Below, piece by piece: positions 3,259 to 40,485 of a stretch of DNA of 64,000 bases. Below the pieces are notes generated by a model. That model did no database searches. It saw only the letters and a list, made by a program, of their open reading frames with translations, and was not told the DNA's origin. Position numbers and translations under genes: made by a program. The stretch is from an uncultured candidatus Porisulfidus sp. (lineage in GTDB: Bacteria; Pseudomonadota; Gammaproteobacteria; Poriferisulfidales; Poriferisulfidaceae): contig CBDASZ010000002.1 in assembly GCA_965199755.1 (NCBI GenBank), positions 128,001-192,000 of the forward strand, read 5' to 3'. How positions within the stretch are numbered: the first letter of the stretch is position 1; each line of letters opens with the position of its first letter.

Positions 3259-3439
3259 GAGCGATAAAAACGCAACTGGTATTAGTTACATCATCCCGTG
3301 AAATGCCCAAATATATCTGTGGTATTAAACGGGGGCTTCACTATGCTCAATTATCCCAAACAGAACCACGAAGCCCCATGTTGCGATTAGCCCCCTAAAG
3401 AGGTAGGATCCGATATGAGTATAAGGGGTTCTCAAGGAA

Positions 3440-4303
3440 ATGTCTGCACCCATCCAGCCAAAACCCTTCGTCAAATGGGCCGGGGGCAAAAGCCAGTTGC
3501 TCGGCGAGTTGGAGAAGCGCTTCCCCCAGAAGTGTCAGAATTACTTTGAAATCTTTGGGGGGGGGGGGGGGGCAGTGCTGTTCTCGCTCGGAGATCACAG
3601 CAATCTCAAACGCACCGGCATCCTCGCATTCAATGATCAAAACCCCGAGTTAATCAACACCTATGAGGTTGTCCGAGATAATGTGGACAGATTGATCGAC
3701 AGTCTCTCCAAACACCAGAACACGCCAGAATATTTCAAGGAGATTCGCGACTGGGATCGCCCTCCTCATCGCTACAAGCAGTGCAGCAAAGTAAAGCGAG
3801 CCAGCCGCCTGATTTATCTCAACAAGACAGCCTACAATGGCCTTTATCGTGTAAACGCCAAGGACCAGTTCAATGTTCCCTTTGGCAAATATCGCAATCC
3901 CAAAATCGTTGATGCCGAAAATCTTCGGGCCTGCTCCGAGTTCCTGCAGAACGTCTGGCTGTCCTCGCTGGATTTCGAGGCACTCCTAGAACGAATTTCA
4001 CGAGGCGATATGGTCTATATGGATCCGCCTTACGCCCCCCTTTCCGAGACCTCCAGTTTCACCGCATACACAAAAGACGGATTTGGCCGTGACAAACAGG
4101 AACGTTTAAGAGACTTCTGCGTTGCCTTAGACCGCAAGGGCGCCAAGTTCCTGTTGTCCAATTCTGCAGCTGACTGGATTCAGTGCCTCTACAGAGCGCA
4201 TCCCCAATTTAATGTGGAAGAAGTCTTCGCAAACCGTGCTATTAACAGCAAGGCAGAAGGCCGTGGCAAGGTTAAAGAAATTGTCGTGCGGAACTACTCA
4301 TGA
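3440..4303 (+). CDS. DNA adenine methyltransferase, Dam/D12 class
   Basis: KWAGGK, motif I FGGGGGAV, YNGLYRVN..FNVPFG, catalytic DPPY, LSNS. Confidence 0.95.
   Translation: MSAPIQPKPFVKWAGGKSQLLGELEKRFPQKCQNYFEIFGGGGGAVLFSLGDHSNLKRTGILAFNDQNPELINTYEVVRDNVDRLIDSLSKHQNTPEYFKEIRDWDRPPHRYKQCSKVKRASRLIYLNKTAYNGLYRVNAKDQFNVPFGKYRNPKIVDAENLRACSEFLQNVWLSSLDFEALLERISRGDMVYMDPPYAPLSETSSFTAYTKDGFGRDKQERLRDFCVALDRKGAKFLLSNSAADWIQCLYRAHPQFNVEEVFANRAINSKAEGRGKVKEIVVRNYS
3557..3572 (+). repeat. G16 homopolymer in motif I of the methyltransferase (currently in frame)
   Basis: atcttt-G16-cagtg. Confidence 0.9.
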
Positions 4304-29697: not shown

Positions 29698-29773
29698 TGG
29701 TGGGCCATCAGGGACTCGAACCCCGAACCTGCTGATTAAGAGTCAGTTGCTCTACCAATTGAGCTAATGGCCC
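29698..29773 (-). tRNA. tRNA-Lys(CTT)
   Basis: GGGCCATTAGCTCAATTGGTAGAGC..CT-CTT-AA..GGTTCGAGTCC..TGGCCCACCA, 76 nt with CCA. Confidence 0.96.
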
Positions 29774-29801
29774 GACGCTTCCGGCTGAGTAGTGCGGCAA
29801 G

Positions 29802-29878
29802 TGGGGTGAGTGACGGGATTTGAACCCGCGACCTCAGGAGCCACAATCCTGTGCTCTACCAACTGAGCTACACCCACC
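29802..29878 (-). tRNA. tRNA-His(GTG)
   Basis: G-1 start GGTGGGTGTAGCTCAGTTGGTAGAGC, loop TT-GTG-GC, GGTTCAAATCC, CCA end. Confidence 0.96.
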
Positions 29879-29889
29879 ACAATCGGAAT

Positions 29890-29966
29890 TGGCACGCCCG
29901 GCAGGATTCGAACCTGCGACCTCCGGTTTAGAAGACCGATGCTCTGATCCACTGAGCTACGGGCGC
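29890..29966 (-). tRNA. tRNA-Arg(TCT)
   Basis: GCGCCCGTAGCTCAGTGGATCAGAGC, loop CT-TCT-AA, GGTTCGAATCC, CCA end. Confidence 0.96.
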
Positions 29967-29996
29967 CCATTTTACCGCCTATGACGCACAAATCCG

Positions 29997-30073
<77 letters not shown>

Positions 30074-30120: not shown

Positions 30121-31881
30121 CTACTGCGGGCAAAGTTCTGTCTTTATAATTTCGAGAAATATTTCAGCACGGCGCTTGAGAAATGCCTCATAGTTCCCTT
30201 CCTTCCCTGTTTTTACATTCAGTTCATCAAACGGCACACGATGGGAGGCAAGCAACTTTTTCATATCTGCCTCATTACGGTTTCTATTTAAACGTTCTCG
30301 GAGGTATTGAATAGGAGGCTTTGCTTGTAATTTATTATTGGTTACAGAGCTAATCAAGGCATAATTCAAAGCATGGTTAACCACTTCCTTTTTCCTACCT
30401 TCATCTTCCAAAAGCGCTTTAGGAAACAGATGATGGTATTGCCTATCTCTGATGTTTCCTGCGGTAATTGATTCCTCAGAAGCCAAGTCTTCTGCTCCAT
30501 TTTGGAGGCTAATACACAATAAGGCACGCGCCAACCTGTTCTTTGTGGTGGGAGAAGAAAGAGGATCACTTACTGATGCTAATTCACCTAGTTTCGGGAG
30601 CGAAAATTCTTTTCCACGAAAGATAGGGATATCGCTCTCCTTAACGTTCTTATCCATTGGACCTTCCAAGTAACCTTTAAGCCCTCTATAATCCTCCCAA
30701 AGCCTACTGTTAGCAGTTCTTTCGTACCTGTCCGTTAGAAAAGCATGCCAAAGATATTGCTTTATAGCCTTCCGAAATGCCCCTCTATGATCAGTGTCAT
30801 TTGGCAATAGTTCATGTAAAGCCACTAGCGCCTGAAAAGGCACAAGACTAGGCAAACGTTTTTCATCATATATTTTCTCATTTTCAAGTTGTTCAATAGC
30901 CCAATCCATTCCCGCGACAATTCCTTTCCAAGCATCTGCGTCTGCAATTAGTCCAGTAACATTTCGGTCTGTATAGTTAGAGTCAGTTGGTAATTTATCT
31001 GATCTGAGACAAGCCACTTTAAGCACAAATTCTCCGATTTTCTGGATTCGCTTATCCGTATCATCTCCAAAGAAACGAACCTGTCGCTCTTTTCCGATCT
31101 CAATATTTTCTATCCGGTCGCGAAGCACCTCCCCTGTCCCTTTCTCAATTTCTGCTACTGCAATATCGAATCTGGATATCTTTGCAGAGGACTCATTGGT
31201 CTTAATGAAAACTTCGATCGCTTCATCACGTTCAGTCTCTTTTGGTAGACAATAGTATGAAATGTCCCGATGTCTTAATTGCTCGGACAACTTACTAATC
31301 TTTCTTTCTAATGCACGACTTTCACTCGCAGCATCCTGACATACCTTGTCACACCACTCTCCGACCTTTTCGCCTCCCTCTGGTCCCAATATGCCAACAG
31401 GGAGCAAGTTTTCCTGCCATAACCTAAGAAAGTCAACTTTCTCGAACTTGGTTTTTTGCTTTTTAGTTACGACTTCCTCAACAGCAAAATCAGAAGCATC
31501 CTTGCTTTCAACTTTCAAAAAAAGCCGAAGAAAATAATCCTTCCCTTCATCTTGGTAGTCAATATTAAAGGCCCTCCATAAAGTTGTTAATCTCTGTTGC
31601 CCGTCCAAAATCAGTTGATCACAATCTTCTACACTAGGCTCTGGTGCATTACGTATTCCGTGACACTTGAAGATGGAGTTGTCTTTCTTTTGGTAGTCCA
31701 ACAACAGCAACGTACCCACCGGCTTTAAATTCAACAACGAACAAAGCAAATCTTCAGCCTGTTTATCCTTCCAAACGAGACCTCTTTGAAAACTAGGTAG
31801 CATGAGTTTTTTGTCTCGAATCCTTTGAAGCCATCCTTCCACTGAGCACCTCTCGGGAGCACCTGCACTTGAATCATTCAT
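30121..31881 (-). CDS. DUF262 + C-terminal HNH-like nuclease (GmrSD / SspE-like)
   Basis: LPSFQRGLVW, LILDGQQRLTTL, VFIKTN; C-terminal YHHLFPK..NHALNYALISSVTNNKLQAKPP. Confidence 0.88.
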   Translation of the reverse strand: MNDSSAGAPERCSVEGWLQRIRDKKLMLPSFQRGLVWKDKQAEDLLCSLLNLKPVGTLLLLDYQKKDNSIFKCHGIRNAPEPSVEDCDQLILDGQQRLTTLWRAFNIDYQDEGKDYFLRLFLKVESKDASDFAVEEVVTKKQKTKFEKVDFLRLWQENLLPVGILGPEGGEKVGEWCDKVCQDAASESRALERKISKLSEQLRHRDISYYCLPKETERDEAIEVFIKTNESSAKISRFDIAVAEIEKGTGEVLRDRIENIEIGKERQVRFFGDDTDKRIQKIGEFVLKVACLRSDKLPTDSNYTDRNVTGLIADADAWKGIVAGMDWAIEQLENEKIYDEKRLPSLVPFQALVALHELLPNDTDHRGAFRKAIKQYLWHAFLTDRYERTANSRLWEDYRGLKGYLEGPMDKNVKESDIPIFRGKEFSLPKLGELASVSDPLSSPTTKNRLARALLCISLQNGAEDLASEESITAGNIRDRQYHHLFPKALLEDEGRKKEVVNHALNYALISSVTNNKLQAKPPIQYLRERLNRNRNEADMKKLLASHRVPFDELNVKTGKEGNYEAFLKRRAEIFLEIIKTELCPQ

Positions 31882-33080
31882 AACGCAATACCTCCGCGTT
31901 GATTATTAACTTGGTATGAAACAGCACGACGCACCCCTTTTGTACCTTGAGCGATAATCTCCAATGCTGCTTCTATTTCGAATTCCGTAGTGAATCTGCC
32001 AATGCCAAAACGCAAAGAGGAATCCGCAGCAGACTCAGATAGCCCATATGCCAGCAAAATTCTGGATGGCTCTACTGTATCTGAGTGACAGGCCGAGCCG
32101 GAAGAAATCAAAAGGCCGTCGAAAGCATTGATCCACTCGTCACTTGATTTTCCTGGGAAGTACAAGTTCAAGATCCCAGGCACTCGGTGGTTCTTTTTAG
32201 AGCTTCCGTTTAATTGAGTTTCCGGGTATATCTCGAATATCCCCGTAGTAAATTTTTTTGCTAAATGTTCGATTCGGTGCATGTCATCTTCTAGTTCTCT
32301 CGCAATGATCTGACAAGTTTCGCCAAACCCAACACACAATGGCACAGGAAGTGTGCCTGAACGAAGTCCTAATTCCTGACCTCCACCGAAAACAACTGGC
32401 CTTATTGCGCGTTGGGCATTCTTCCCGATGTATAAAGAGCCTATTCCCTTAGGGCCGTAAGCTTTATGCGCCGAAAGGGTTATTAGATCCCCTCCAATGT
32501 CTTCTACATCAACCGGCAACTTTCCAAGTGATTGTGCACAGTCTGAATGGAATAGAACACCTCCCTGGTGGCAAAGCCTAGCGATTTCATTAACAGGCTG
32601 GACTACCCCGGTTTCATTATTGACGTGCATTACGGTGACCAGAAGTGTAGCCTCTGAAATATGCTCCTCAAGTAAGTTGATATCAACGTGCCCTGAAGAT
32701 TGGACTGGCAAAACTGTTACCTGTGTTCCTTCCACCCCCATGGCTCTGACAGTTTCCAAGACAGAACTGTGTTCGGTTTCCAATGTGATGATCTCGCGCC
32801 TGTTCGAAGGCGCTGCTCTCACTAGTCCCTGAATAGCTATGTTGTTTGCTTCTGTCGCGCCAGATGTGAAAATTACGGCGCGGGGGTCTGCATTAATCGC
32901 CTGCGCGATTTGGGATCGAGCCGTATTGACAGCCTTCTCCGCTCTTATACCAGCCAAGTGGTTATTTGAATGAGGATTAGCATAGATTTCTGTGAAATAC
33001 GGAGCCATAGCCTCGTACACACGCGGGTCCACTGGCGTAGAAGCAGGATAATCCAGATATATTGAGTTTGAGGAAAACAC
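31878..33080 (-). CDS. Cysteine desulfurase, IscS/DndA type
   Basis: IYLDYPASTP, ANPHS, FTSGATEANN, NNETG, SAHK (PLP Lys), GLRSGT, SSGSACHS (catalytic Cys). Start uncertain (GTG 33080 or 33101). Confidence 0.95.
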   Translation of the reverse strand: MFSSNSIYLDYPASTPVDPRVYEAMAPYFTEIYANPHSNNHLAGIRAEKAVNTARSQIAQAINADPRAVIFTSGATEANNIAIQGLVRAAPSNRREIITLETEHSSVLETVRAMGVEGTQVTVLPVQSSGHVDINLLEEHISEATLLVTVMHVNNETGVVQPVNEIARLCHQGGVLFHSDCAQSLGKLPVDVEDIGGDLITLSAHKAYGPKGIGSLYIGKNAQRAIRPVVFGGGQELGLRSGTLPVPLCVGFGETCQIIARELEDDMHRIEHLAKKFTTGIFEIYPETQLNGSSKKNHRVPGILNLYFPGKSSDEWINAFDGLLISSGSACHSDTVEPSRILLAYGLSESAADSSLRFGIGRFTTEFEIEAALEIIAQGTKGVRRAVSYQVNNQRGGIAL

Positions 33081-33084
33081 TGTT

Positions 33085-34437
33085 TCAGTCAGTACAATCA
33101 CAAGGCAGTAGAGCCTCTGCCGACGGGATGTCGTCGGGTTCAATATCTTTCAGTATGCGGTATGTCCTCTGGGCATCCACTCCCCAGAACCCAATAGTTA
33201 CAGTTTCTTCACTAGATTGCTTTTGATCGGTAGAGCGCTTAACTGGTCTCCGCTGGTAACGTTCTTCTAAATCAGCCCACCATTCGACATCTGATGGGGT
33301 ATTGGGAACACTGCGCAATGCTACCGGCAGGCTTGCATCTAAACGTTTTATTTCGCGCTGGATAACAGGGATAGCATTCTCGCCTTTCATAAAGCAGTAA
33401 ACACAATTTGATAAGTTGCTTTGGTCCGGGAGTTCCAACTGCCACGGCCGAGCACTCCAATAATCCATTACTGCATCTTTATCGACTTCCGCATCGGCTA
33501 GCGGGGTGTACACGATCTCGCCATCCGGCAGATTTGCATTTCCTCGTTCTTGCTTATTTATTCCCTTGCGGTTCCGCTGCTTAACTCTGGAAACTCTCAT
33601 AGGTTCATCAGCCCTCAAGCCAATAAGAGAAACATATTCGATCGCTCCTGACCCTGTCATCGGCGCGGTATCCCCAAGACTCCGATCCGAAAACGCAGAT
33701 TTCATAATGTACCGCGCGCCAATCTCAGAAAAATCATCAAACTTCTGAGGCAAGCAGGCGGGAGGACACCGCCGAACATATTCTTTTTTACGCAAGAGTT
33801 CCTCATCTGCCATCATGCCGCGAGACTTCTTATGGCGAGCGATAACTTCTTCATCAGTTACTAAAGACTCTTGGCGATAGTGGCCTTTGTGAGTAGTAGT
33901 TTCTTTTGCTGCAAACCATTCGCAAAGAAAATTATTTGTTGTCGATAACTTCAGATTGGTAGTGCAAATTCTTGTGTGGCGACTTGGGAGAAACCCTGCT
34001 CTACTAACCATTTCTTCAAACACCTCCCCTTTATAGTGATAACCATCAGAGTTTTCTGGACTAAATGGTTCTTTGTTGACAAGACGAAATGAGTCATGCC
34101 TTGACCAGCCACCATGAGTAGCATCTTCGTATGAAGCGTATTCCAGCCAAAAAAAGGGAATTCCTGCCTGCTCTGTGTAGTCTGCACACTTTCGGACAAA
34201 ATCATACGTTGCAGGATGCTCAGCAGACGTGTTATTGAAAATTACAACATCTCCACGAATCGGATCGAAAACACCATGGTCGAGTAAGGCCATCAGCATC
34301 ATCCCGCTGGAACGTCCACCGGAAAATTTCACAACGTGCGGTAGTCCCTGATGTGATTTCGTTTCGTACTTGATACCCAAACCAGAATGGCTTTCCGCCT
34401 TTGGGGGTTGCGAAGCACTTGAAGAAGGCGATGACAT
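33085..34437 (-). CDS. PP-loop / PAPS-reductase-like (adenine nucleotide alpha-hydrolase) Cys-rich protein
   Basis: VVKFSGGRSSG, FNNTSAEHPATYDFV, WLEY, RICTTNLK, IGLRADE, YTPL, SNCVYCFMKG, terminal PCDCTD. Confidence 0.85.
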   Translation of the reverse strand: MSSPSSSASQPPKAESHSGLGIKYETKSHQGLPHVVKFSGGRSSGMMLMALLDHGVFDPIRGDVVIFNNTSAEHPATYDFVRKCADYTEQAGIPFFWLEYASYEDATHGGWSRHDSFRLVNKEPFSPENSDGYHYKGEVFEEMVSRAGFLPSRHTRICTTNLKLSTTNNFLCEWFAAKETTTHKGHYRQESLVTDEEVIARHKKSRGMMADEELLRKKEYVRRCPPACLPQKFDDFSEIGARYIMKSAFSDRSLGDTAPMTGSGAIEYVSLIGLRADEPMRVSRVKQRNRKGINKQERGNANLPDGEIVYTPLADAEVDKDAVMDYWSARPWQLELPDQSNLSNCVYCFMKGENAIPVIQREIKRLDASLPVALRSVPNTPSDVEWWADLEERYQRRPVKRSTDQKQSSEETVTIGFWGVDAQRTYRILKDIEPDDIPSAEALLPCDCTD

Positions 34438-35327
34438 TAGCTAGTTCCAGAAACAATCGGTACTATTTCACTTTTGATGATTTCCTTGACTTGCGGAGGG
34501 GAAAGTGCTCCCAGCGCCTGAGTCGCTGTATGTCGCCCTATCACATCAGCCAGAGTTCTGACTTTTTCTTTGGATCGTTCGTTTGATTCCGCCAGTTGAA
34601 TAATTAAAGCTGGGCGTATATTTTGGTCCCCGATTACAGTAAGGCGGCTCACCATTGACTCAATGAGCACTTCCCAGCGTGCTGATATCCGAAGTACTTC
34701 GGATAACTCTTGAGTGGTGAAAATACTGAAAATACGTTGTGCTTCAGTCGCGTAACGATGCCTCCACCAAGCTTTTGCCAATGGACAATCCAGGTATGTT
34801 GAGCGAGCACCCCTGTCTCTAATAATCCCTCCCAAACGTCTAAGGACATCACGAACACAACTCTCGATCTCTTTGGATCTTTTCTTGGACACACGCTCCT
34901 TATTTACAATCCTGTTAATGCGATCTCTGCCAGATTGTTTCTTTTTAGAAGTTGCTAAGAACGAACTTGAAATAAGTCCTTCCTCGATAAGTTCAACATG
35001 AATCCTCGCCCAAGCACCTGGCTGCGCCGCCATTGCCACAGGGAGATCTGCCCAGGTGCTGGCAATAACTTCCTCTGTAGACCATGGCAACTCCAAGTAT
35101 TCCGACTCCGACAGTTGGTAGGGTAAGACAGAGGGAGAGTTGCCCCTTGTCACCCCCCAAGAACGAACTATTGCACAGAATTCTTGCGAGTCTTCTGCAA
35201 CAATCTCAAGAAACTTAATTCGCTCTCTTTCCGAGCTTTGCAATTCCCTTTTGGACAGCAACACACCCTGAGCTTTCTCTAAACCTCTGTGCTCAATTGC
35301 TTGAATTTCACTAGACTGAATCAGCAT
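34437..35327 (-). CDS. Hypothetical helical protein, DUF6339-like
   Basis: LPVAMAAQPGAWARIH and ..DCPLAKAWW recall the DUF6339 motifs (A.D.RLW..L.H; RN..ARLWW). Recalled, unverified. TAATG coupling to the next gene. Confidence 0.5.
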   Translation of the reverse strand: MLIQSSEIQAIEHRGLEKAQGVLLSKRELQSSERERIKFLEIVAEDSQEFCAIVRSWGVTRGNSPSVLPYQLSESEYLELPWSTEEVIASTWADLPVAMAAQPGAWARIHVELIEEGLISSSFLATSKKKQSGRDRINRIVNKERVSKKRSKEIESCVRDVLRRLGGIIRDRGARSTYLDCPLAKAWWRHRYATEAQRIFSIFTTQELSEVLRISARWEVLIESMVSRLTVIGDQNIRPALIIQLAESNERSKEKVRTLADVIGRHTATQALGALSPPQVKEIIKSEIVPIVSGTS

Positions 35328-36168
35328 TGCTTACTCCACTGAATTTGAACGGTCTAAACCTAGCGGCAGCTACCTCTGCATGGAAATCTTCGTTGTCCCA
35401 AGTAGCAATACCTTCGTTTTCTAGCATCGTGTGTAACTCTCTCAAAACAGGAAACTCTTCCCAGAGGTTCCCTGAACCTTCTTTTGAACCGTATTCCCGC
35501 CGAAGGATTTCGAATCCCACTGTCAGCGCACTAGTCAAAATGCCGTTCCTATAATCTCCCTGTCCTTCAGGAGGGGTCACCAGAAAGGAATATAGTTCAG
35601 GGTGTGCAGTGACCTTAAAGTGGAATCCTTCGCTAGAACTTTCCTCTACTTTATATTCACCGGGCTTTAATTCTCCCTTTGGATCTTCAAGTAGCCTCAA
35701 CAGACTTTCAAAAGTAGACCTAAATGCCCAGAACTGGTCAATAGCAAGAATAGTTCCAGAGCGCAATTGAATTTCTCGACCGTCCCAAATGCTATGGACT
35801 CCGTGTCTCTCAGTTGACAACTTTATATTTTGGGGTTCTGCCAGCTCAACTACAACAATAGGACGAATATATACGGGAGGAACAACTTCCGCCGCATCCC
35901 AAGAGACCTTTTGAGTGCATGATATTTCGCCTCGAATCTCGCTTTTTTCTATATGCCGGAACGTTGCATACGGAGAAGAAACCTCGACCGCGAATACAGC
36001 CTTGGACTCTTTCAGTAACGATGCAACCAAGTTTTTCCCTTGAATTTCATGTCTTACATCCATGCTGTGTTTATCATCTCCCTGATCAACTGATATGCGG
36101 TATGTGCTGTTGGCATAGTCCATCCGTGATTCCTCCAAGAGAGGCAGTACTGTCGTGCTTAATGTCAT
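35311..36168 (-). CDS. Hypothetical protein (285 aa, beta-rich N-terminus), partner of the GHKL ATPase
   Basis: ATGA overlap with the ATPase C-terminal frame; 17 bp overlap with the next gene. Confidence 0.75.
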   Translation of the reverse strand: MTLSTTVLPLLEESRMDYANSTYRISVDQGDDKHSMDVRHEIQGKNLVASLLKESKAVFAVEVSSPYATFRHIEKSEIRGEISCTQKVSWDAAEVVPPVYIRPIVVVELAEPQNIKLSTERHGVHSIWDGREIQLRSGTILAIDQFWAFRSTFESLLRLLEDPKGELKPGEYKVEESSSEGFHFKVTAHPELYSFLVTPPEGQGDYRNGILTSALTVGFEILRREYGSKEGSGNLWEEFPVLRELHTMLENEGIATWDNEDFHAEVAAARFRPFKFSGVSNADSV

Positions 36169-38094
36169 TTGGAAGTCTCCTGTTTTGAGGTCGCACGCTT
36201 GATAACTTCGACTCGGACACTCCCATGACCAGGATGTTGGCATGGAACTTGTATATCCACCTCTTTACCCAAGTCTAATTTGCCCAGGTCAATAGATACG
36301 CGCTGACCATTCGCATCTTTGTGCACATTTTCGACGCGCTTCCCATCGAGAGTCGGGTCTCCGCAGATTTCCAAAAACTGATCTGCCGGCGGCGAATCAC
36401 AAGTTTTATCAGCACCACTTGCATGCACTAGTCGCAACTCTACGTTTCTGTTCTTTTCAAGAGGCTTAAGACGAATTTGCATGCCTCCATTTTCCCAAAC
36501 GGAAGCCTGTTGTACCTTCAAATGACTTCCATGGCGCTTTATAGGGCTTGGGTTTGGAGGATAAGGTCCTAGGCGCTCGCCACCAGGATAAACTTGCGGA
36601 TCAGGTTGGTTTTGGCGCTCTGGTCGGCCAACACTTCCTTTGGGAGACTTCGGGTTTTTCTCGCGCCCGCCGCCGGTAACTTCAACCGAGAAAAATCCCG
36701 GATCAATCTCACGAGCTTCTAACTCAGGAGCAAATTCGCGGAGTTGCGCGTGTATTTCTTGGAAAAGTTTGTCGAACTGCTCACGTTTTTTCGATGTTCC
36801 CTTTCGACCCAAACGCGAAAGGTCTAGATCTATGTGCCGAGGACCTTCGGCATCGCGGATTAAATTGCATGCCTCTCCTGCAAGATCAGGATCTAGCAGT
36901 ATAAGTGCATTGAAGGGTGCCGAGCGACCGAAATTTGCTGGCTGATTGAGATGAATGGCATTGGTGACCCACATCCCGTTTCTGTACAGTTGAAGATGGG
37001 TGCCCCCCCCCCCCCTCCATAAGTTCTGATGTGTACTGGCGGAAGGCCACAGGCACAGATCCAAATGAAGTTTCGATATTTATCCGATTGGCTTCATCTA
37101 GCGTAATTGCTGCGTCCCAAGCTTGTCTTCCACTTGGCCCAATTGAATGATTCTTCCTTCGAATACGCTCCTTATAGTTTTCGAGGATTTCCCGAAGCCT
37201 ATTCCGATCGATCACACTCTCTTCCCAAGAGGGTGCTTTAACATGAATGTTCATCTTCCCTGCATGAATAGCAGGAGCAAAATGAGTAGCCGAAACACGT
37301 TCAATTTCTCTCACTACTTCCTGATCATCATCATACCGGTTAAAGCGGTTGAAACCCAAGATCCCGACCACCGATCCGGTGCCATATTCCTCTTCGATCC
37401 AATCTAGTTTTTTGCTAATAATTTTAGGAACGTCTCCATCCCAATAGTACAGAAAACGGTCTATGAGATCTTCTTCAAGTTTCGCGACTAAAAAACCGTC
37501 TTTCCCATAGTTTTCCCCGTTCAGAGCATGTGTTGCGAGGATAGTTTGGCCTGCAGCAATTCGACGCTTCTTGCCATGTTGCTCGAACACACCTCCGTAC
37601 ACGATGTAGCGAAGATCTGATGCGGGGAATGTCGTCATATGTCCATTCCCATAAGACCCTGTCGATTTCTCATCAGACTTCGTGCTTGCCCCATCCGACA
37701 ACAAGCGATTCATATTATCGGGGCTCAGCCCAATTCCGTTATCCATGACCCAAAGTATTGATGATTTATCAGCGTCAAGGGTTTCCTGCATTGCATCCGT
37801 AATGCCTTTTGCTTGCTGCAAGGTTTTTGCCCTCCGCTGAGTCTCGATCGCGCCTTCAAAATGTTCTCTGTAGTTACTGATTACCGAGATAGACTTGGTC
37901 TTCATCTCTTCAATATGAAAATGAATGTGCGCGGTATCTGATCCCTTCTTTGCCTGAAGGAAAGCATCAAGACCGTTCTGAATCAATTCGCGAAGCAGTG
38001 TGTCAGGGTCAATATTGTTGACCATGGACAGACCTGTTGGCCGGAAGCCTTCCAGTGGCCCCGCTGGATGGAACTTTAAAGTCGGTTTAGCCAT
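36165..38094 (-). CDS. GHKL/MORC-type ATPase, frameshifted at a G13 tract (642 aa if G12)
   Basis: Bergerat motifs RELIQNGLDA, DNGIG, GSYGNG in ORF 36886-38094. Protein-like sequence continues after the tract in the 36165-37064 frame (GTHLQLYRNGMWV..). Confidence 0.8.
37003..37015 (-). repeat. G13 homopolymer (C13 on + strand) at the ATPase frameshift
   Basis: + strand gatgggtg-C13-tccat. Confidence 0.9.
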
Positions 38095-38112: not shown

Positions 38113-38653
38113 TTAAGGATTGGGTGCGAATGCTAGCATAGTCCAAAAGCGAGCGTGTGACAGTATTCCCCCATCATAGGTCCCACCTGTACCAAAACTA
38201 CCCAGTCCTGCCCAATCGCGACTTTTCCTCTCGATAATCTCAGCTAGTGCTTTCGCGTCCTTGATTAAGTCGGAAAATAATTTTTGGGCATCAGCGAATT
38301 TCTCGCAATAATCTTGATAGATCCGGTCCATCTCAAATAGGGGATCTACATAGGACAACCACTTCTGAACATCAGCCATCTCAAGCAGGCCATGCTTGCC
38401 AGTATAGCGAAGTATGTTTTTTATTATGGCTTGCTTGAAGAGGAGGACGACGATTTTCTTCGTGGTAATCAGGCTGACATTTCATCAGTATATGCCTGAC
38501 CTCTGTCAGCACCAAAAAGGAAGTCACAGCACAAACATTACGAGTCCCATCATGGTCAAGCTCATCCGGCTCGGCTTCCTCGCGCCTAGCTAAATTATAC
38601 TTAAGTTGCTCAATGTATATTTTCAAAAGTTCTATATGGTCGCTCATGCTCAT
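38113..38653 (-). pseudogene. Decayed HEPN (HI0074-like nucleotidyltransferase substrate-binding) gene, frameshifted
   Basis: Two ORFs join via a frameshift at about 38420-38450. The second frame extends upstream as IKNILRYTGKHGLLEMADVQKWLSYVD..IKDAKALAEIIE. The RNxxxH motif is absent. Confidence 0.6.
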
Positions 38654-38843: not shown

Positions 38844-39341
38844 ATGACTGATCCAAATCCGGCCCCGCCCGTCGCCATCGTGATGGGCAGTAGTAGCGAC
38901 TGGAGCACCATGAAGGTCGCGGCTGAATACCTCGACACTCTGGAAGTCTCTTTTGAGGCGCGCGTGGTGTCTGCTCACCGCACGCCAGATCTGATGCGTG
39001 ACTACGCCCGCAGCGCCCGCGAACGCGGCATTCGCTGCCTGATCGCCGGAGCCGGAGGGGCGGCGCATCTGCCAGGCATGCTGGCCGCCATGACCCCTGT
39101 CCCGGTACTGGGCGTCCCTATCAACGCCACCGCACTGGACGGTCAGGATTCTCTGCTGTCGATCGTGCAGATGCCCAAGGGCATTCCGGTCGCCACTTTC
39201 GCGATTGGCAAGCCCGGAGCCGCCAACGCAGCGTTGTTCGCCGCCGCCATGCTGGCTGGCAGCGACCCGGAACTGGCGACGCGCATTGATGCCTTCCGAG
39301 AGTCCCAGACACGCGCCGTTCTTGAACAGACCCTTGACTGA
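38844..39341 (+). CDS. purE: N5-CAIR mutase
   Basis: [35 protein letters not shown]. Confidence 0.97.
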
Positions 39342-40485
39342 AACTGCGCCCGCCGGCGCGTCACTCGGCATTCTCGGCGGCGGCCAACTCGGCCAGATGT
39401 TCGCCCAAGCCGCCCAAGACATGGGCTACCACGTCACGGTGCTGGAACCCGGTGCCGAATGCCCCGCCTCCCGACACGCCGCATTGCACCTGATCGCCAA
39501 TTACGACAACACCCAGGCACTGGACACCATGGCCGCCGACTGCGTGGCCGCCAGTTTCGAGTTTGAGTCGGTCCCAGCAAAAGCGGTCGAATACCTGCAG
39601 TCTCGCATCCCAGTCCGCCCGGATGCCACCGCACTGGAGATTGCGCAAAGCCGAAGTCAAGAGAAAGCCTTTGCCCAACAACACGCCACACACACCCTGC
39701 CTGTCCCTTACGCGCCCATCACGGACGATGCCCAAATCCCTGAAGCACTGGAACGTCTCGGCACCCCGTGCATTCTCAAGACAGACCGTCTGGGCTATGA
39801 CGGCAAGGGCCAGCAGCAGGTCAGCGACGCACAACAAGCGAGTGACGTCTTTCACAAGTTTGGCCACGTCCCTTGCGTCCTTGAGAAAGCCATTGACTTG
39901 CAGTGCGAAGTTTCCGTAATCGTCGCACGCCAGGCAGAACAGTTCGCCGTCTATCCGGTTGCCGACAACGAACACCGCAGCGGCATTCTGCACCGCTCCA
40001 TGGCTCCCGCGAACATCTCCAACAGCATTCGCCAGCAGTTGCAAGACTCAGCCTGCGCCCTCGCGAACGCCCTGCAATATCAGGGTGTGATGGCGGTGGA
40101 GTACTTCATCGCGCAAGACGGTGCGCTTTATTTCAACGAACTGGCACCGCGTCCACACAACAGCGGCCACTACACCATCGACGCTTGCGCCACCTCACAA
40201 TTTGAACAACAAGTCCGCGTCTTGTGCGGCATGGAACTCGGCAGCACCGAACAGCACAGTCCGATCGTCATGATCAACTTGCTCGGCGATCTCTGGCGTG
40301 ATGGTGCAGAGCCGGACTGGACGGGAATTCACGACGAACCAACCGCACGATTGCATCTGTACGGCAAACGAGACGCGAGACCTGGTCGAAAGATGGGACA
40401 CTTCTGCGTGCTAGACCCGGATCTCAGCACGGCGCTGGAATGCGCCGAGCGGCTCTATCAAAACCTCAGCCAGCCCACTTCCTGA
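39334..40485 (+). CDS. purK: N5-CAIR synthase
   Basis: [42 protein letters not shown]. Confidence 0.96.

What the first reader, a model, noticed from the sequence alone, without database searches (positions are those of the whole stretch)
30121..38094. Candidate new sulfur-based DNA modification/restriction system: GHKL ATPase - unknown - DUF6339-like - PAPS-reductase-like - cysteine desulfurase - DUF262/HNH
Seen: six co-oriented genes on an AT-richer island, joined by ATGA/TAATG overlaps or gaps of a few bases (36165-68, 35311-27, 34437, 33080-85, 31878-81). The desulfurase motifs (SAHK, SSGSAC) and the PP-loop (SGGRSS) are intact. Established: a dedicated desulfurase plus a PAPS-reductase-domain protein is the sulfur-incorporating core of phosphorothioation (DndA+DndC, SspA+SspD), and SspE is a DUF262+DUF1524/HNH effector. 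Dnd uses the SMC/ABC-type ATPase DndD plus DndE, and Ssp uses the nickase SspB plus the P-loop ATPase SspC. None of these, nor the BREX genes PglZ/BrxC, is recognisable here. Instead there is a GHKL/MORC ATPase trio of a kind I recall next to cytosine-methyltransferase loci. Inference: a distinct architecture in which a MORC module targets backbone or base thiolation, read by the DUF262 nuclease.
Basis: partly seen in the sequence, partly recalled or inferred. Interest (0 to 1): 0.93.

Follow-up and report, generated by a model that had tools for sequence, protein, structure and literature searches.

The report
Phase-variable sulfur DNA-marking defence island
A horizontally acquired gene cluster seems to write a sulfur mark (most likely a phosphorothioate) on DNA using an ATPase trio not seen before in such systems, pairs it with a nuclease, and is switched on and off by a run of G bases.

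Summary
Window 30121-38094 (minus strand) is one low-GC operon: GHKL ATPase (split by a G13 frameshift), PDC-M33B-like protein, DUF6339 protein, a PP-loop/PAPS-reductase-like enzyme of an unannotated family, a DndA/SspA-type cysteine desulfurase and a DUF262 plus His-Me nuclease. The PAPS-reductase-like gene sits beside the GHKL trio in 11 of 12 genome loci and 21 of 22 close metagenome loci. A desulfurase or a nuclease is attached in a subset. In relatives the nuclease slot holds a bona fide SspE (1 locus) or PbeA/PbeC (2 loci), which are known phosphorothioate-dependent effectors. The same trio flanks a C5-methyltransferase in 2 loci elsewhere, so it behaves as a carrier for interchangeable DNA-modifying enzymes. 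A complex model docks DUF6339 on the PAPS-reductase-like enzyme (0.71; best control 0.00). No DndC/D, SspB/C/D or PglZ is present. The G tract is one of nine long G/C tracts in this 1.39 Mb genome, mostly in restriction-modification genes. Two congeners carry C19 or C20 tracts at the 5' end of the same gene. Verdict: a new, phase-variable variant of sulfur-based DNA modification-restriction, apparently OFF here. The chemistry is untested. I found no description in the library searched.

The parts
36165..38094 (-). GHKL (Bergerat-fold) ATPase, PDC-M33A-like, first conserved gene of the operon. It is interrupted by a +1 frameshift and reads through as the 642-aa P0001.
   Evidence: PADLOC PDC-M33A 2.1e-19. 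Invariant E36/N40, D118xGxG and G146xxGxG motifs in 13 sequences. Weak HATPase_c_3, sacsin-type and HSP90 hits. Read-through.
37003..37015 (-). G13 homopolymer (C13 on the + strand): a phase-variation tract that puts the GHKL gene out of frame. G12 would be in frame.
   Evidence: It is one of nine G/C runs of 11-16 nt in a genome with none of 9-10 nt. It lies in a 6-residue insertion absent from homologues. Congeners have C19 or C20 tracts at the 5' end of the same gene.
35311..36168 (-). PDC-M33B-like protein (285 aa from the ATG at 36168): N-terminal beta-sandwich plus C-terminal helices, function unknown.
   Evidence: PADLOC PDC-M33B 2.9e-8. Alignment A3. No Pfam family. AF2 model pLDDT 76, pTM 0.54, no PDB match at E<=0.001. 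Atlas neighbours are all 'hypothetical'.
34437..35327 (-). DUF6339-family (PDC-M33C-like) all-alpha protein, the predicted docking partner of the PAPS-reductase-like enzyme.
   Evidence: PF19866 in 5 of 12 homologues. PDC-M33C in 3 of 12. AF2 pLDDT 82, pTM 0.83, no PDB match. Complex model 0.71 against best control 0.00.
33085..34437 (-). PP-loop / PAPS-reductase-like enzyme of a distinct, unannotated family: the presumed sulfur-inserting writer.
   Evidence: Invariant KFSGGxxS, C158, C345/C348 and the C-terminal PCDCTD motif (C446/C448). Weak SspD, BrxP and DndC hits. hhalign against DndC aligns only the PP-loop, probability 12%. Atlas nearest named clusters carry PF01507. 1248 clusters in public data, almost all unnamed.
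31878..33143 (-). DndA/SspA-type (IscS/NifS class) cysteine desulfurase, a dedicated second copy. The likely start is the GTG at 33080.
   Evidence: PADLOC SspA 1.2e-137 and DndA 4.4e-137. Aminotran_5 8.2e-80. SAHK and SSGSAC motifs. A housekeeping paralogue of 43% identity lies elsewhere in the genome.
30121..31881 (-). DUF262 (ParB/GmrSD_N) NTPase domain plus a C-terminal His-Me-like nuclease: the presumed restriction or reader component.
   Evidence: GmrSD_N 83 bits. PADLOC HEC-05 1.4e-19. Invariant FQR, DGQQR and HH...N...N motifs. Profile hit to BrxU-like 7p9k, 3.1e-16.
38113..38653 (-). Two small ORFs (88 and 90 aa) packed directly upstream of the GHKL gene inside the low-GC island. Membership in the system is uncertain.
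   Evidence: No Pfam, PADLOC or NCBIfam hit. No homologue in related loci.
29698..30073 (-). tRNA cluster (Lys, His, Arg, Pro) at the low-coordinate edge of the island. purK (39205-40485, +) bounds the other edge.

Best explanation
The island encodes a sulfur-based DNA modification-restriction system with a new architecture. The dedicated DndA/SspA-type desulfurase takes sulfur from cysteine as a persulfide. The PP-loop/PAPS-reductase-like enzyme uses ATP to activate a DNA phosphate and inserts the sulfur, most likely giving a phosphorothioate; its conserved cysteines would hold an Fe-S cluster and/or relay the persulfide. This enzyme does not work with DndD/DndE or SspB/SspC. It is docked, through the DUF6339 subunit, onto a GHKL ATPase - M33B - DUF6339 machine that engages DNA. 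The same machine carries a C5-cytosine methyltransferase in canonical PDC-M33 loci. The DUF262 plus His-Me nuclease, replaced by SspE, another DUF262-HNH protein or PbeA/C in relatives, is the restriction arm that tells marked self DNA from unmarked foreign DNA. A poly-G tract in the GHKL gene switches the system on and off; in this assembly it is OFF (G13). Shown here: gene content, motifs, conserved linkage, interchangeable partners, and the tract pattern.
For: Linkage: the PAPS-reductase-like gene is adjacent to the GHKL trio in 11 of 12 genome loci from Alpha- and Gammaproteobacteria, Thermodesulfobacteriota and Nitrospirales. It is also adjacent in 21 of 22 close metagenome loci; the 22nd is cut at the contig end. 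In the genus, 5 of the 6 other genomes that hold the enzyme also hold the GHKL gene.

Sulfur: a DndA/SspA-type desulfurase is adjacent in the window, 4 of 12 genome loci, 2 of 22 metagenome loci and 2 congeners. It is an extra copy beside a housekeeping paralogue. The writer has an invariant PP-loop and five invariant cysteines.

Kind of mark: the gene right after the desulfurase is a full-length SspE in L005 (PADLOC 3.8e-209). PbeA (5.9e-146) and PbeC (2.6e-42) follow it in L021. PbeA/C homologues lie between the writer and the GHKL gene in congener G415. SspE and Pbe are phosphorothioate-dependent effectors (abstracts in the listing; passages).

Carrier idea: in G184 and G096 the trio flanks a C5-methyltransferase, once upstream of the GHKL gene and once downstream of the third gene. 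These are the two positions the PAPS-reductase-like gene takes.

Docking: the complex model scored 0.71 with best control 0.00. That mark was reached by 58 of 80 solved complexes and 2 of 110 mismatched pairs. Runs agreed in at least 98% of contacts and partner pLDDT was at least 80. The counts hold only roughly because my own alignments were used. The interface includes residues 70-84 of DUF6339 and 183-188 of the enzyme, which contain invariant positions.

Defence-like behaviour: a low-GC island at different sites in congeners. The tract sits among long G/C tracts that lie mainly in Type ISP and Dam-like restriction-modification genes.
Against: No chemistry was measured. The writer is not a DndC or SspD family member: TIGR03183 scores 16.9 bits against a cut-off of 290, SspD matches only 34 residues, and hhalign against three DndC sequences gives 12% probability over the PP-loop alone. 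Pfam PF01507 does not hit it.

Three of the five genomes tested (those of L005, L004 and L009) hold a separate DndC-family gene above its cut-off. The SspE of L005 could therefore serve that gene instead, although neither DndD nor PglZ was found in those three genomes.

Most loci carry no adjacent desulfurase or nuclease. The window's DUF262 protein resembles BrxU/GmrSD type IV enzymes more than SspE or DndI. Homologues of 29-33% identity stand alone in 2 congeners. Two loci have the writer without the trio: L011 and G409.

[quoted passage not shown] I could not tell whether that is this family.
Confidence: 0.6

Rival explanations
1. The writer and the trio have the opposite division of labour. 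The PAPS-reductase-like enzyme, with a desulfurase, marks DNA on its own, as is reported for TdpC. The GHKL-M33B-DUF6339 trio is the restriction or sensing arm that attacks unmarked DNA, just as it would beside a self-sufficient C5-methyltransferase in PDC-M33.
For: C5-methyltransferases normally need no targeting partner, yet the trio accompanies them. Most loci have no other nuclease candidate next to the four core genes. A passage says tdpC alone suffices for phosphorothioate synthesis. Aravind's group proposed restriction-side roles for prokaryotic GHKL ATPases (passages).
Against: No nuclease motif or fold was found in any trio member. Known phosphorothioate-dependent restriction modules (SspE, PbeA/C) and DUF262 nucleases are added to the core in several loci, which would be redundant. 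The predicted DUF6339-enzyme contact suggests one complex, though it does not decide the question. The phase-variable gene is the GHKL gene; switching off only a restriction arm is possible but less typical.
Confidence: 0.17
2. The mark is not a backbone phosphorothioate. It is another product of PP-loop chemistry on DNA, such as a thiolated base or a non-sulfur substitution of an adenylated position.
For: The enzyme forms its own family, far from DndC and SspD. Most loci have no adjacent desulfurase. PP-loop enzymes also thiolate bases in tRNA (passage). The window's nuclease is nearest to BrxU, a reader of modified bases (the function of BrxU is recalled).
Against: SspE and PbeA/C, which act with phosphorothioates, are attached in three loci. 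The linked desulfurase is of the DndA/SspA type. Dnd systems also often rely on an unlinked IscS (passage).
Confidence: 0.12
3. The DUF262 nuclease is an independent type IV restriction enzyme that merely shares a defence island. The five upstream genes are then a stand-alone, phase-variable epigenetic marking system (a 'phasevarion') with no restriction arm.
For: Its best structural relative by sequence is a BrxU-like DUF262 protein. The best PADLOC hit is the single-gene candidate HEC-05. Homologues occur alone in G416 and G406. The core occurs without any nuclease in most loci.
Against: The gene overlaps the desulfurase stop by ATGA. In L002, L009 and G412 it lies inside the operon, between the writer and the GHKL gene. 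Three unrelated DUF262 nuclease types occupy the same slot.
Confidence: 0.2
4. The genes serve RNA thiolation or sulfur metabolism and have nothing to do with DNA.
For: Cysteine desulfurases and PP-loop enzymes are the core of tRNA thiolation (passage).
Against: It is a low-GC mobile island, linked to SspE, Pbe and DUF262 nucleases. Its trio is otherwise linked to DNA methyltransferases. It carries a phase-variation tract like the genome's restriction-modification genes. Distribution is sporadic: 7 of 16 genomes in the genus.
Confidence: 0.03

Closest known systems
SspABCD-SspE phosphorothioation-sensing defence
   Same: A dedicated SspA/DndA-type desulfurase (PADLOC SspA 1.2e-137), a PP-loop enzyme, an ATPase, and a DUF262 plus His-Me nuclease at the end of the operon. 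One relative (L005) carries a genuine SspE in that slot.
   Different: No SspB nickase or SspC P-loop ATPase was hit among the operon proteins. The PP-loop enzyme matches SspD over only 34 residues. The ATPase is a GHKL type with two unknown partners. The window's nuclease shares only the N-terminal DUF262 motifs with SspE, 29% over 89 residues.
DndABCDE with DndFGH, DndI or PbeABCD
   Same: A desulfurase plus a PAPS-reductase-superfamily enzyme plus a DNA-engaging ATPase module. Restriction arms are optional and interchangeable, including DUF262-HNH (DndI; passages) and Pbe. The carrier module is also found with cytosine methylases in place of the sulfur enzymes (abstract of PMC10853773).
   Different: No DndC (16.9 bits against 290.4) and no DndD in the genome. 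The SMC-like ABC ATPase DndD and the DNA-binding DndE are replaced by the GHKL-M33B-DUF6339 trio.
PADLOC candidate system PDC-M33 (GHKL ATPase, B, DUF6339 protein), untested as far as I could find
   Same: The trio is homologous and keeps the same gene order.
   Different: Canonical loci carry a C5-cytosine methyltransferase (G184, G096). Here that position is taken by the PAPS-reductase-like enzyme with a desulfurase and a nuclease. Similarity to the PADLOC models is distant: 2e-19 here against 2e-91 for the canonical ATPase.
BREX type 4 (BrxP) and TdpABC
   Same: Further cases in which a PAPS-reductase-type enzyme writes phosphorothioates outside Dnd and Ssp (passages).
   Different: There is no PglZ in the genome, and BrxP matches only about 60 residues. 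Tdp proteins could not be compared: no model or paper was at hand.

Membership tests
Ssp system | SspA-type cysteine desulfurase | tested here: met
   PADLOC SspA 1.2e-137, full length. SAHK and SSGSAC motifs are present.
Ssp system | SspD PAPS-reductase-like ATP pyrophosphatase | tested here: not met
   SspD model matched residues 146-179 only, 31 bits. No SspD in the genome at E<=0.001.
Ssp system | SspB nickase and SspC ATPase | tested here: not met
   A PADLOC scan of all ten island proteins gave no SspB or SspC hit at E<=0.01. The rest of the genome was not scanned for them.
Ssp system | SspE (DUF262 + DUF1524) effector | tested here: not met
   The window's DUF262 protein hits HEC-05 and not SspE, and shares 29% over 89 residues with a true SspE. 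A true SspE does occupy the slot in relative L005.
Dnd system | DndC sulfurtransferase | tested here: not met
   TIGR03183 scores 16.9 bits against a cut-off of 290.4. None in the genome. hhalign probability 12%, PP-loop only.
Dnd system | DndD ABC/SMC-like ATPase | tested here: not met
   TIGR03185 has no match in G000.
Dnd system | DndE | not tested
   No search was made for DndE.
Dnd system | DndA desulfurase | tested here: inconclusive
   PADLOC DndA 4.4e-137, but NCBIfam TIGR03235 scores 373 bits, below its equivalog cut-off of 480.
BREX type 4 | BrxP together with PglZ and BrxC | tested here: not met
   BrxP 5.2e-5 over residues 34-97 only. PglZ PF08665 was not found in G000.
PADLOC PDC-M33 | A (GHKL ATPase), B and C (DUF6339) in this order | tested here: met
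   A 2.1e-19 and B 2.9e-8. C: 3 of 12 homologues hit PDC-M33C and 5 of 12 hit PF19866, while the window's own copy is below threshold at E 0.023.
PADLOC PDC-M33 | Adjacent C5-cytosine methyltransferase, as seen in the canonical loci examined here | tested here: not met
   No methyltransferase lies in the island. It is present in G184 and G096.
MORC / paraMORC ATPases | GHKL domain plus S5 domain with the family motifs | tested here: inconclusive
   GHKL motifs are invariant, but HATPase_c_3 scores 21 bits, below its cut-off of 25. No S5 domain was demonstrated. PDB profile hits are weaker than E 0.01.
PAPS reductase / PP-loop superfamily | SGGxxS PP-loop and the fold of PF01507 | tested here: inconclusive
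   The PP-loop is invariant. Pfam PF01507 gives no hit for the window's protein and is recorded for 1 of the 120 listed homologues. The nearest named Atlas clusters are PF01507, score 0.94. No structure model was made for this protein alone.
GmrSD / DUF262-DUF1524 nucleases | N-terminal DUF262 with DGQQR and a C-terminal His-Me nuclease | tested here: inconclusive
   GmrSD_N scores 83 bits against a cut-off of 33, and DGQQR is invariant. GmrSD_C is not hit. A conserved HH...N...N pattern is read as His-Me-like by inspection only.
TdpABC | TdpC writer with the TdpA/TdpB restriction pair | not testable with these tools
   No profile for Tdp proteins is in the libraries, and the paper is not in the held library. 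The profile of the writer found no PDB relative.

The most novel reading that the evidence does not exclude
The GHKL-M33B-DUF6339 trio is a general, ATP-driven delivery machine for DNA-modifying enzymes. DUF6339 is the adaptor that docks interchangeable writers, either a C5-methyltransferase or this PP-loop enzyme. The PP-loop enzyme, being a family of its own, would write a sulfur mark that differs from the known Dnd/Ssp phosphorothioates in chemistry or context, for example a thiolated base. That would add a new natural DNA modification.
Probability: 0.13. Interest if true: 0.95.

Novelty: new variant of a known kind. Interest (0 to 1): 0.8.

Why it matters
Known natural DNA sulfur marking rests on a few machineries (Dnd, Ssp, BREX type 4, Tdp), and recent screens looked only for PAPS-reductase genes next to P-loop NTPases (passage). 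This system would be missed by that criterion. Yet its writer family has 1248 sequence clusters in public data, nearly all unnamed, many from marine and symbiont genomes (record titles).

If confirmed, it adds a further writer architecture. It would give a first function to DUF6339 and to the PDC-M33 candidate. It would show a second case, after DndDE, of one DNA-engaging module carrying either methylation or sulfur enzymes. It would also provide a natural on/off switch for a sulfur epigenome.

Tried and rejected
Reading the frameshift with the four-letter step GGGC=G failed, because an earlier in-frame GGGC shifted the frame. CACC=T worked.

Structure searches gave no function for M33B (best E 1.3e-3, TM about 0.2, generic beta-sandwiches) or for DUF6339 (best E 1.2). 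PDB sequence searches with the writer profile returned only a spurious tag-driven 14-3-3 match. The GHKL profile returned only weak HSP90, TopoVI-B and PMS2 hits.

The GHKL profile found no relative in viral contigs. Promoter and terminator scans were at or below the chance level. DUF6339 (1 of 401 genomes) and PDC-M33A (2 of 301) are too rare for wide sampling, so the methyltransferase link rests on two loci.

The idea that a second DndC-family gene in G401, G402 and G404 belongs to BREX type 4 or to dndCDE was not supported: no PglZ and no DndD. Its nature is open. Alignment A6 did not show clearly whether the docking segment of DUF6339 is specific to loci with the sulfur enzyme.

Literature searches found no paper containing 'DUF6339' or 'PDC-M33'. 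None links phosphorothioation with a GHKL ATPase system: 10 papers hold both words (9 listed), none with a title or listed abstract on such a system, and only one was opened, where the two terms are unrelated. Searches also gave none.

What I saw of each paper:
- Passages only: PMC12839542, PMC2292703, PMC12914056, PMC13223576 and PMC12137116.
- Outline with abstract plus passages: PMC10853773.
- Abstract and passages: PMC11662687.
- Search-listing abstracts only: PMC8092258, PMC9239217 and PMC13251355.
- The Tdp paper (An et al. 2025) is not held, and what I say of it beyond the passages is recalled.
- The origin of the PDC-M candidates in Millman et al. 2022 is recalled, not checked.

Supplementary Data 1-2 and Fig. 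S3 of PMC12914056 may list this architecture, and I could not see them.

Full report
WHAT IS THERE

Window 30.1-39.0 kb is a low-GC island, GC 0.43-0.49 against 0.57-0.63 in the flanks. It lies between a tRNA cluster (Lys/His/Arg/Pro, 29698-30073) and purK. No integrase was seen among the island ORFs scanned.

On the minus strand it carries tightly packed genes. Their junctions are ATGA or TAATG overlaps, or gaps of a few bases.

Reading 5' to 3' the genes are:
- two small unknown ORFs (38653-38113);
- a GHKL ATPase (38094-36165);
- a PDC-M33B-like protein (36168-35311);
- a DUF6339-family protein (35327-34437);
- a PP-loop/PAPS-reductase-like enzyme (34437-33085);
- a DndA/SspA-type cysteine desulfurase (33143/33080-31878);
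- a DUF262 protein with a C-terminal His-Me-like motif (31881-30121).

Family assignments come from Pfam, PADLOC and NCBIfam and from scans of homologue alignments.

THE BROKEN GENE AND THE G TRACT

The GHKL gene is split into two overlapping frames by a run of 13 G at 37003-37015. Read as if one G were absent, it gives an open 642-aa protein. That length matches intact homologues of 580-692 aa.

The Gly run sits in a six-residue insertion that the 12 aligned homologues lack. The tract is therefore a lineage-specific addition, not conserved coding sequence.

The whole genome (1,389,004 bp, GC 58%) has 16 G/C runs of 7-8 nt, none of 9-10 nt and nine of 11-16 nt. Of the nine:
- three lie in a Type ISP restriction-modification locus;
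- one lies in a second helicase-methylase giant gene;
- one lies at the 5' part of a Dam-class methyltransferase (window 3557);
- one lies in a heptosyltransferase fragment;
- two lie in ORFs without a family;
- one is this tract.

This is the pattern of contingency loci.

Two congeners carry the same operon with tracts in the same gene but at another place. In G413 a C19 run follows the fifth codon and is in frame. In G427 a C20 run follows the only nearby start codon (GTG) and is out of frame with the ATPase; that start assignment is my inference. All five congeners checked have G runs of 11 or more.

I conclude that the frameshift is a phase-variation switch and that the copy in this assembly is OFF. 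The read-level test could not be run.

CONSERVED LINKAGE

The writer's relatives were found in 12 genome loci from Parvibaculaceae, several Gammaproteobacteria (including mussel symbionts), Thermodesulfobacteriota and Nitrospirales. Eleven of the 12 have the GHKL gene, an M33B-size gene and a DUF6339 gene alongside. The exception is L011.

A metagenome scan kept 80 loci. The 22 close ones (E <= 1e-63) have the GHKL gene adjacent in 21, and the 22nd ends at the contig edge. The other 58 encode short, distant PAPS-reductase-like proteins without the trio.

In the 16 genomes held for this genus, the writer is in 7 and the GHKL gene in 6 of those 7; G409 has the writer alone. The islands are low in GC and sit at different places.

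The order GHKL-M33B-DUF6339 never changes. The writer lies either before the GHKL gene or after DUF6339.

The writer family has 1248 clusters at E <= 1e-5. Of the 120 listed, the few with a name are called 'hypothetical', and one carries a precomputed PF01507.

WHAT THE PARTS ARE

The desulfurase is a full-length IscS/NifS-class enzyme of the DndA/SspA kind, with the PLP lysine and the catalytic cysteine motifs. The genome has another desulfurase of 43% identity elsewhere, so this one is a dedicated extra copy.

The writer has these invariant features:
- a KFSGGxxS PP-loop;
- Cys158;
- an NCxxC pair (Cys345/348);
- a C-terminal PCDCTD.

It is not DndC, SspD or BrxP. Only short stretches match, and a profile comparison with three DndC sequences aligns the PP-loop alone, probability 12%. 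Language-model features place it next to viral PF01507 clusters.

The ATPase keeps the Bergerat motifs. MORC membership is not shown.

M33B models as a beta-sandwich plus helices, and DUF6339 as an all-alpha protein. Neither has a solved relative.

The DUF262 protein keeps FQR, DGQQR and an HH...N...N pattern. Its profile finds the BrxU-like structure 7p9k at 3.1e-16, but neither DndI nor SspE.

EVIDENCE ON THE KIND OF MARK

The slot after the desulfurase or the core is filled differently in different relatives:
- the window-type DUF262 nuclease in L002, L004, L009, G412, G413, G427 and G425;
- a genuine SspE in L005 (PADLOC 3.8e-209; GmrSD_N + GmrSD_C);
- a DUF262 + HNH protein in L007;
- an HTH protein plus PbeA (5.9e-146) and PbeC (2.6e-42) in L021, and their homologues (49-66% identity) between the writer and the GHKL gene in G415;
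- PD-Lambda-5_A-like genes in L008 and L013.

SspE, DndI and Pbe act with phosphorothioate-marked DNA (abstracts listed; passages). This is the strongest argument that the mark is a phosphorothioate.

The main caveat is that the genomes of L005, L004 and L009 each also hold a DndC-family gene above its cut-off at a distant site, without DndD or PglZ. The window's genome and that of L002 hold none.

THE TRIO AS A CARRIER

DUF6339 and PDC-M33A are rare: 1 of 401 and 2 of 301 genomes sampled. In both loci found, the trio flanks a C5-cytosine methyltransferase. In G184 it lies upstream of the ATPase. In G096 it lies downstream of the third gene. These are the two positions used by the sulfur enzyme.

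The abstract of PMC10853773 reports the same kind of exchange for the DndD/DndE core.

A complex model of DUF6339 with the writer scored 0.71, with best control 0.00. The mark was reached by 58 of 80 solved complexes and 2 of 110 mismatched pairs. Runs agreed in at least 98% of contacts and partner pLDDT was at least 80. My own alignments were used, so the calibration counts hold only roughly. This supports binding but does not show it.

HOW IT MOST LIKELY WORKS (INFERRED)

1. The desulfurase loads a persulfide.
2. The writer adenylates a DNA phosphate and transfers the sulfur.
3. The GHKL dimer with M33B and DUF6339 holds or scans DNA and positions the writer.
4. The DUF262 nuclease discriminates marked from unmarked DNA.

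Because the assembly shows the ATPase OFF with the nuclease intact, the nuclease is probably harmless without the mark. That would resemble SspE rather than DndI (passages). Polar effects or a mixed population could also explain it.

COMPARISON AND NOVELTY

The system works like Ssp and Dnd but fails their membership tests for every part except the desulfurase. It shares the trio with the untested PADLOC candidate PDC-M33 but lacks that candidate's methyltransferase.

I found no description in the library searched. A recent screen required a P-loop NTPase neighbour and so would miss it.

I rate it a new variant of a known kind, with high interest.

Noticed in passing
window 3425-4300 (tract at 3557); G000 C1:136822-142513; C1:849508-854195; C2:266326-266739: Eight further G/C homopolymers of 11-16 nt lie in a Dam-class methyltransferase, two Type ISP-like restriction-modification loci, a heptosyltransferase fragment and two unknown ORFs. 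The genome has no runs of 9-10 nt, which points to a set of phase-variable contingency genes.
   Followed up: partly
L043-L100 (metagenome loci): A family of short PAPS-reductase-like proteins, distantly related to the writer, occurs without the GHKL trio. Atlas places the writer next to mostly viral PF01507 clusters.
   Followed up: no
L112 8845-14239; L113 9866-14007; L105: The genomes of L005, L004 and L009 hold a DndC-family gene above the NCBIfam cut-off (323-340 bits). No DndD or PglZ was found in those genomes. The neighbouring genes differ between the two genomes compared (G401 and G404). This may be another unassigned sulfur system.
   Followed up: partly
L011 9896-13090; L134 10149-11540 (G409): Two loci carry the writer without the trio. 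L011 has unknown 330-aa and 290-aa genes after it. G409 has it alone in a GC-rich context.
   Followed up: partly
window 38113-38653: Two small ORFs (88 and 90 aa) lie inside the island, packed against the GHKL start. They have no family and no homologue in any related locus.
   Followed up: partly
L008 14874-15959; L013 5176-6282: PD-Lambda-5_A-like genes (E 2e-27 and 1e-24) directly follow the four core genes in two mussel-symbiont loci. They may be another effector option or a neighbouring defence gene.
   Followed up: no
L138 9404-11068 (G416); L139 9474-11324 (G406): Solitary low-GC DUF262 genes related to the window's nuclease (29-33% identity) occur in congeners that lack the writer and the GHKL gene.
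   Followed up: yes
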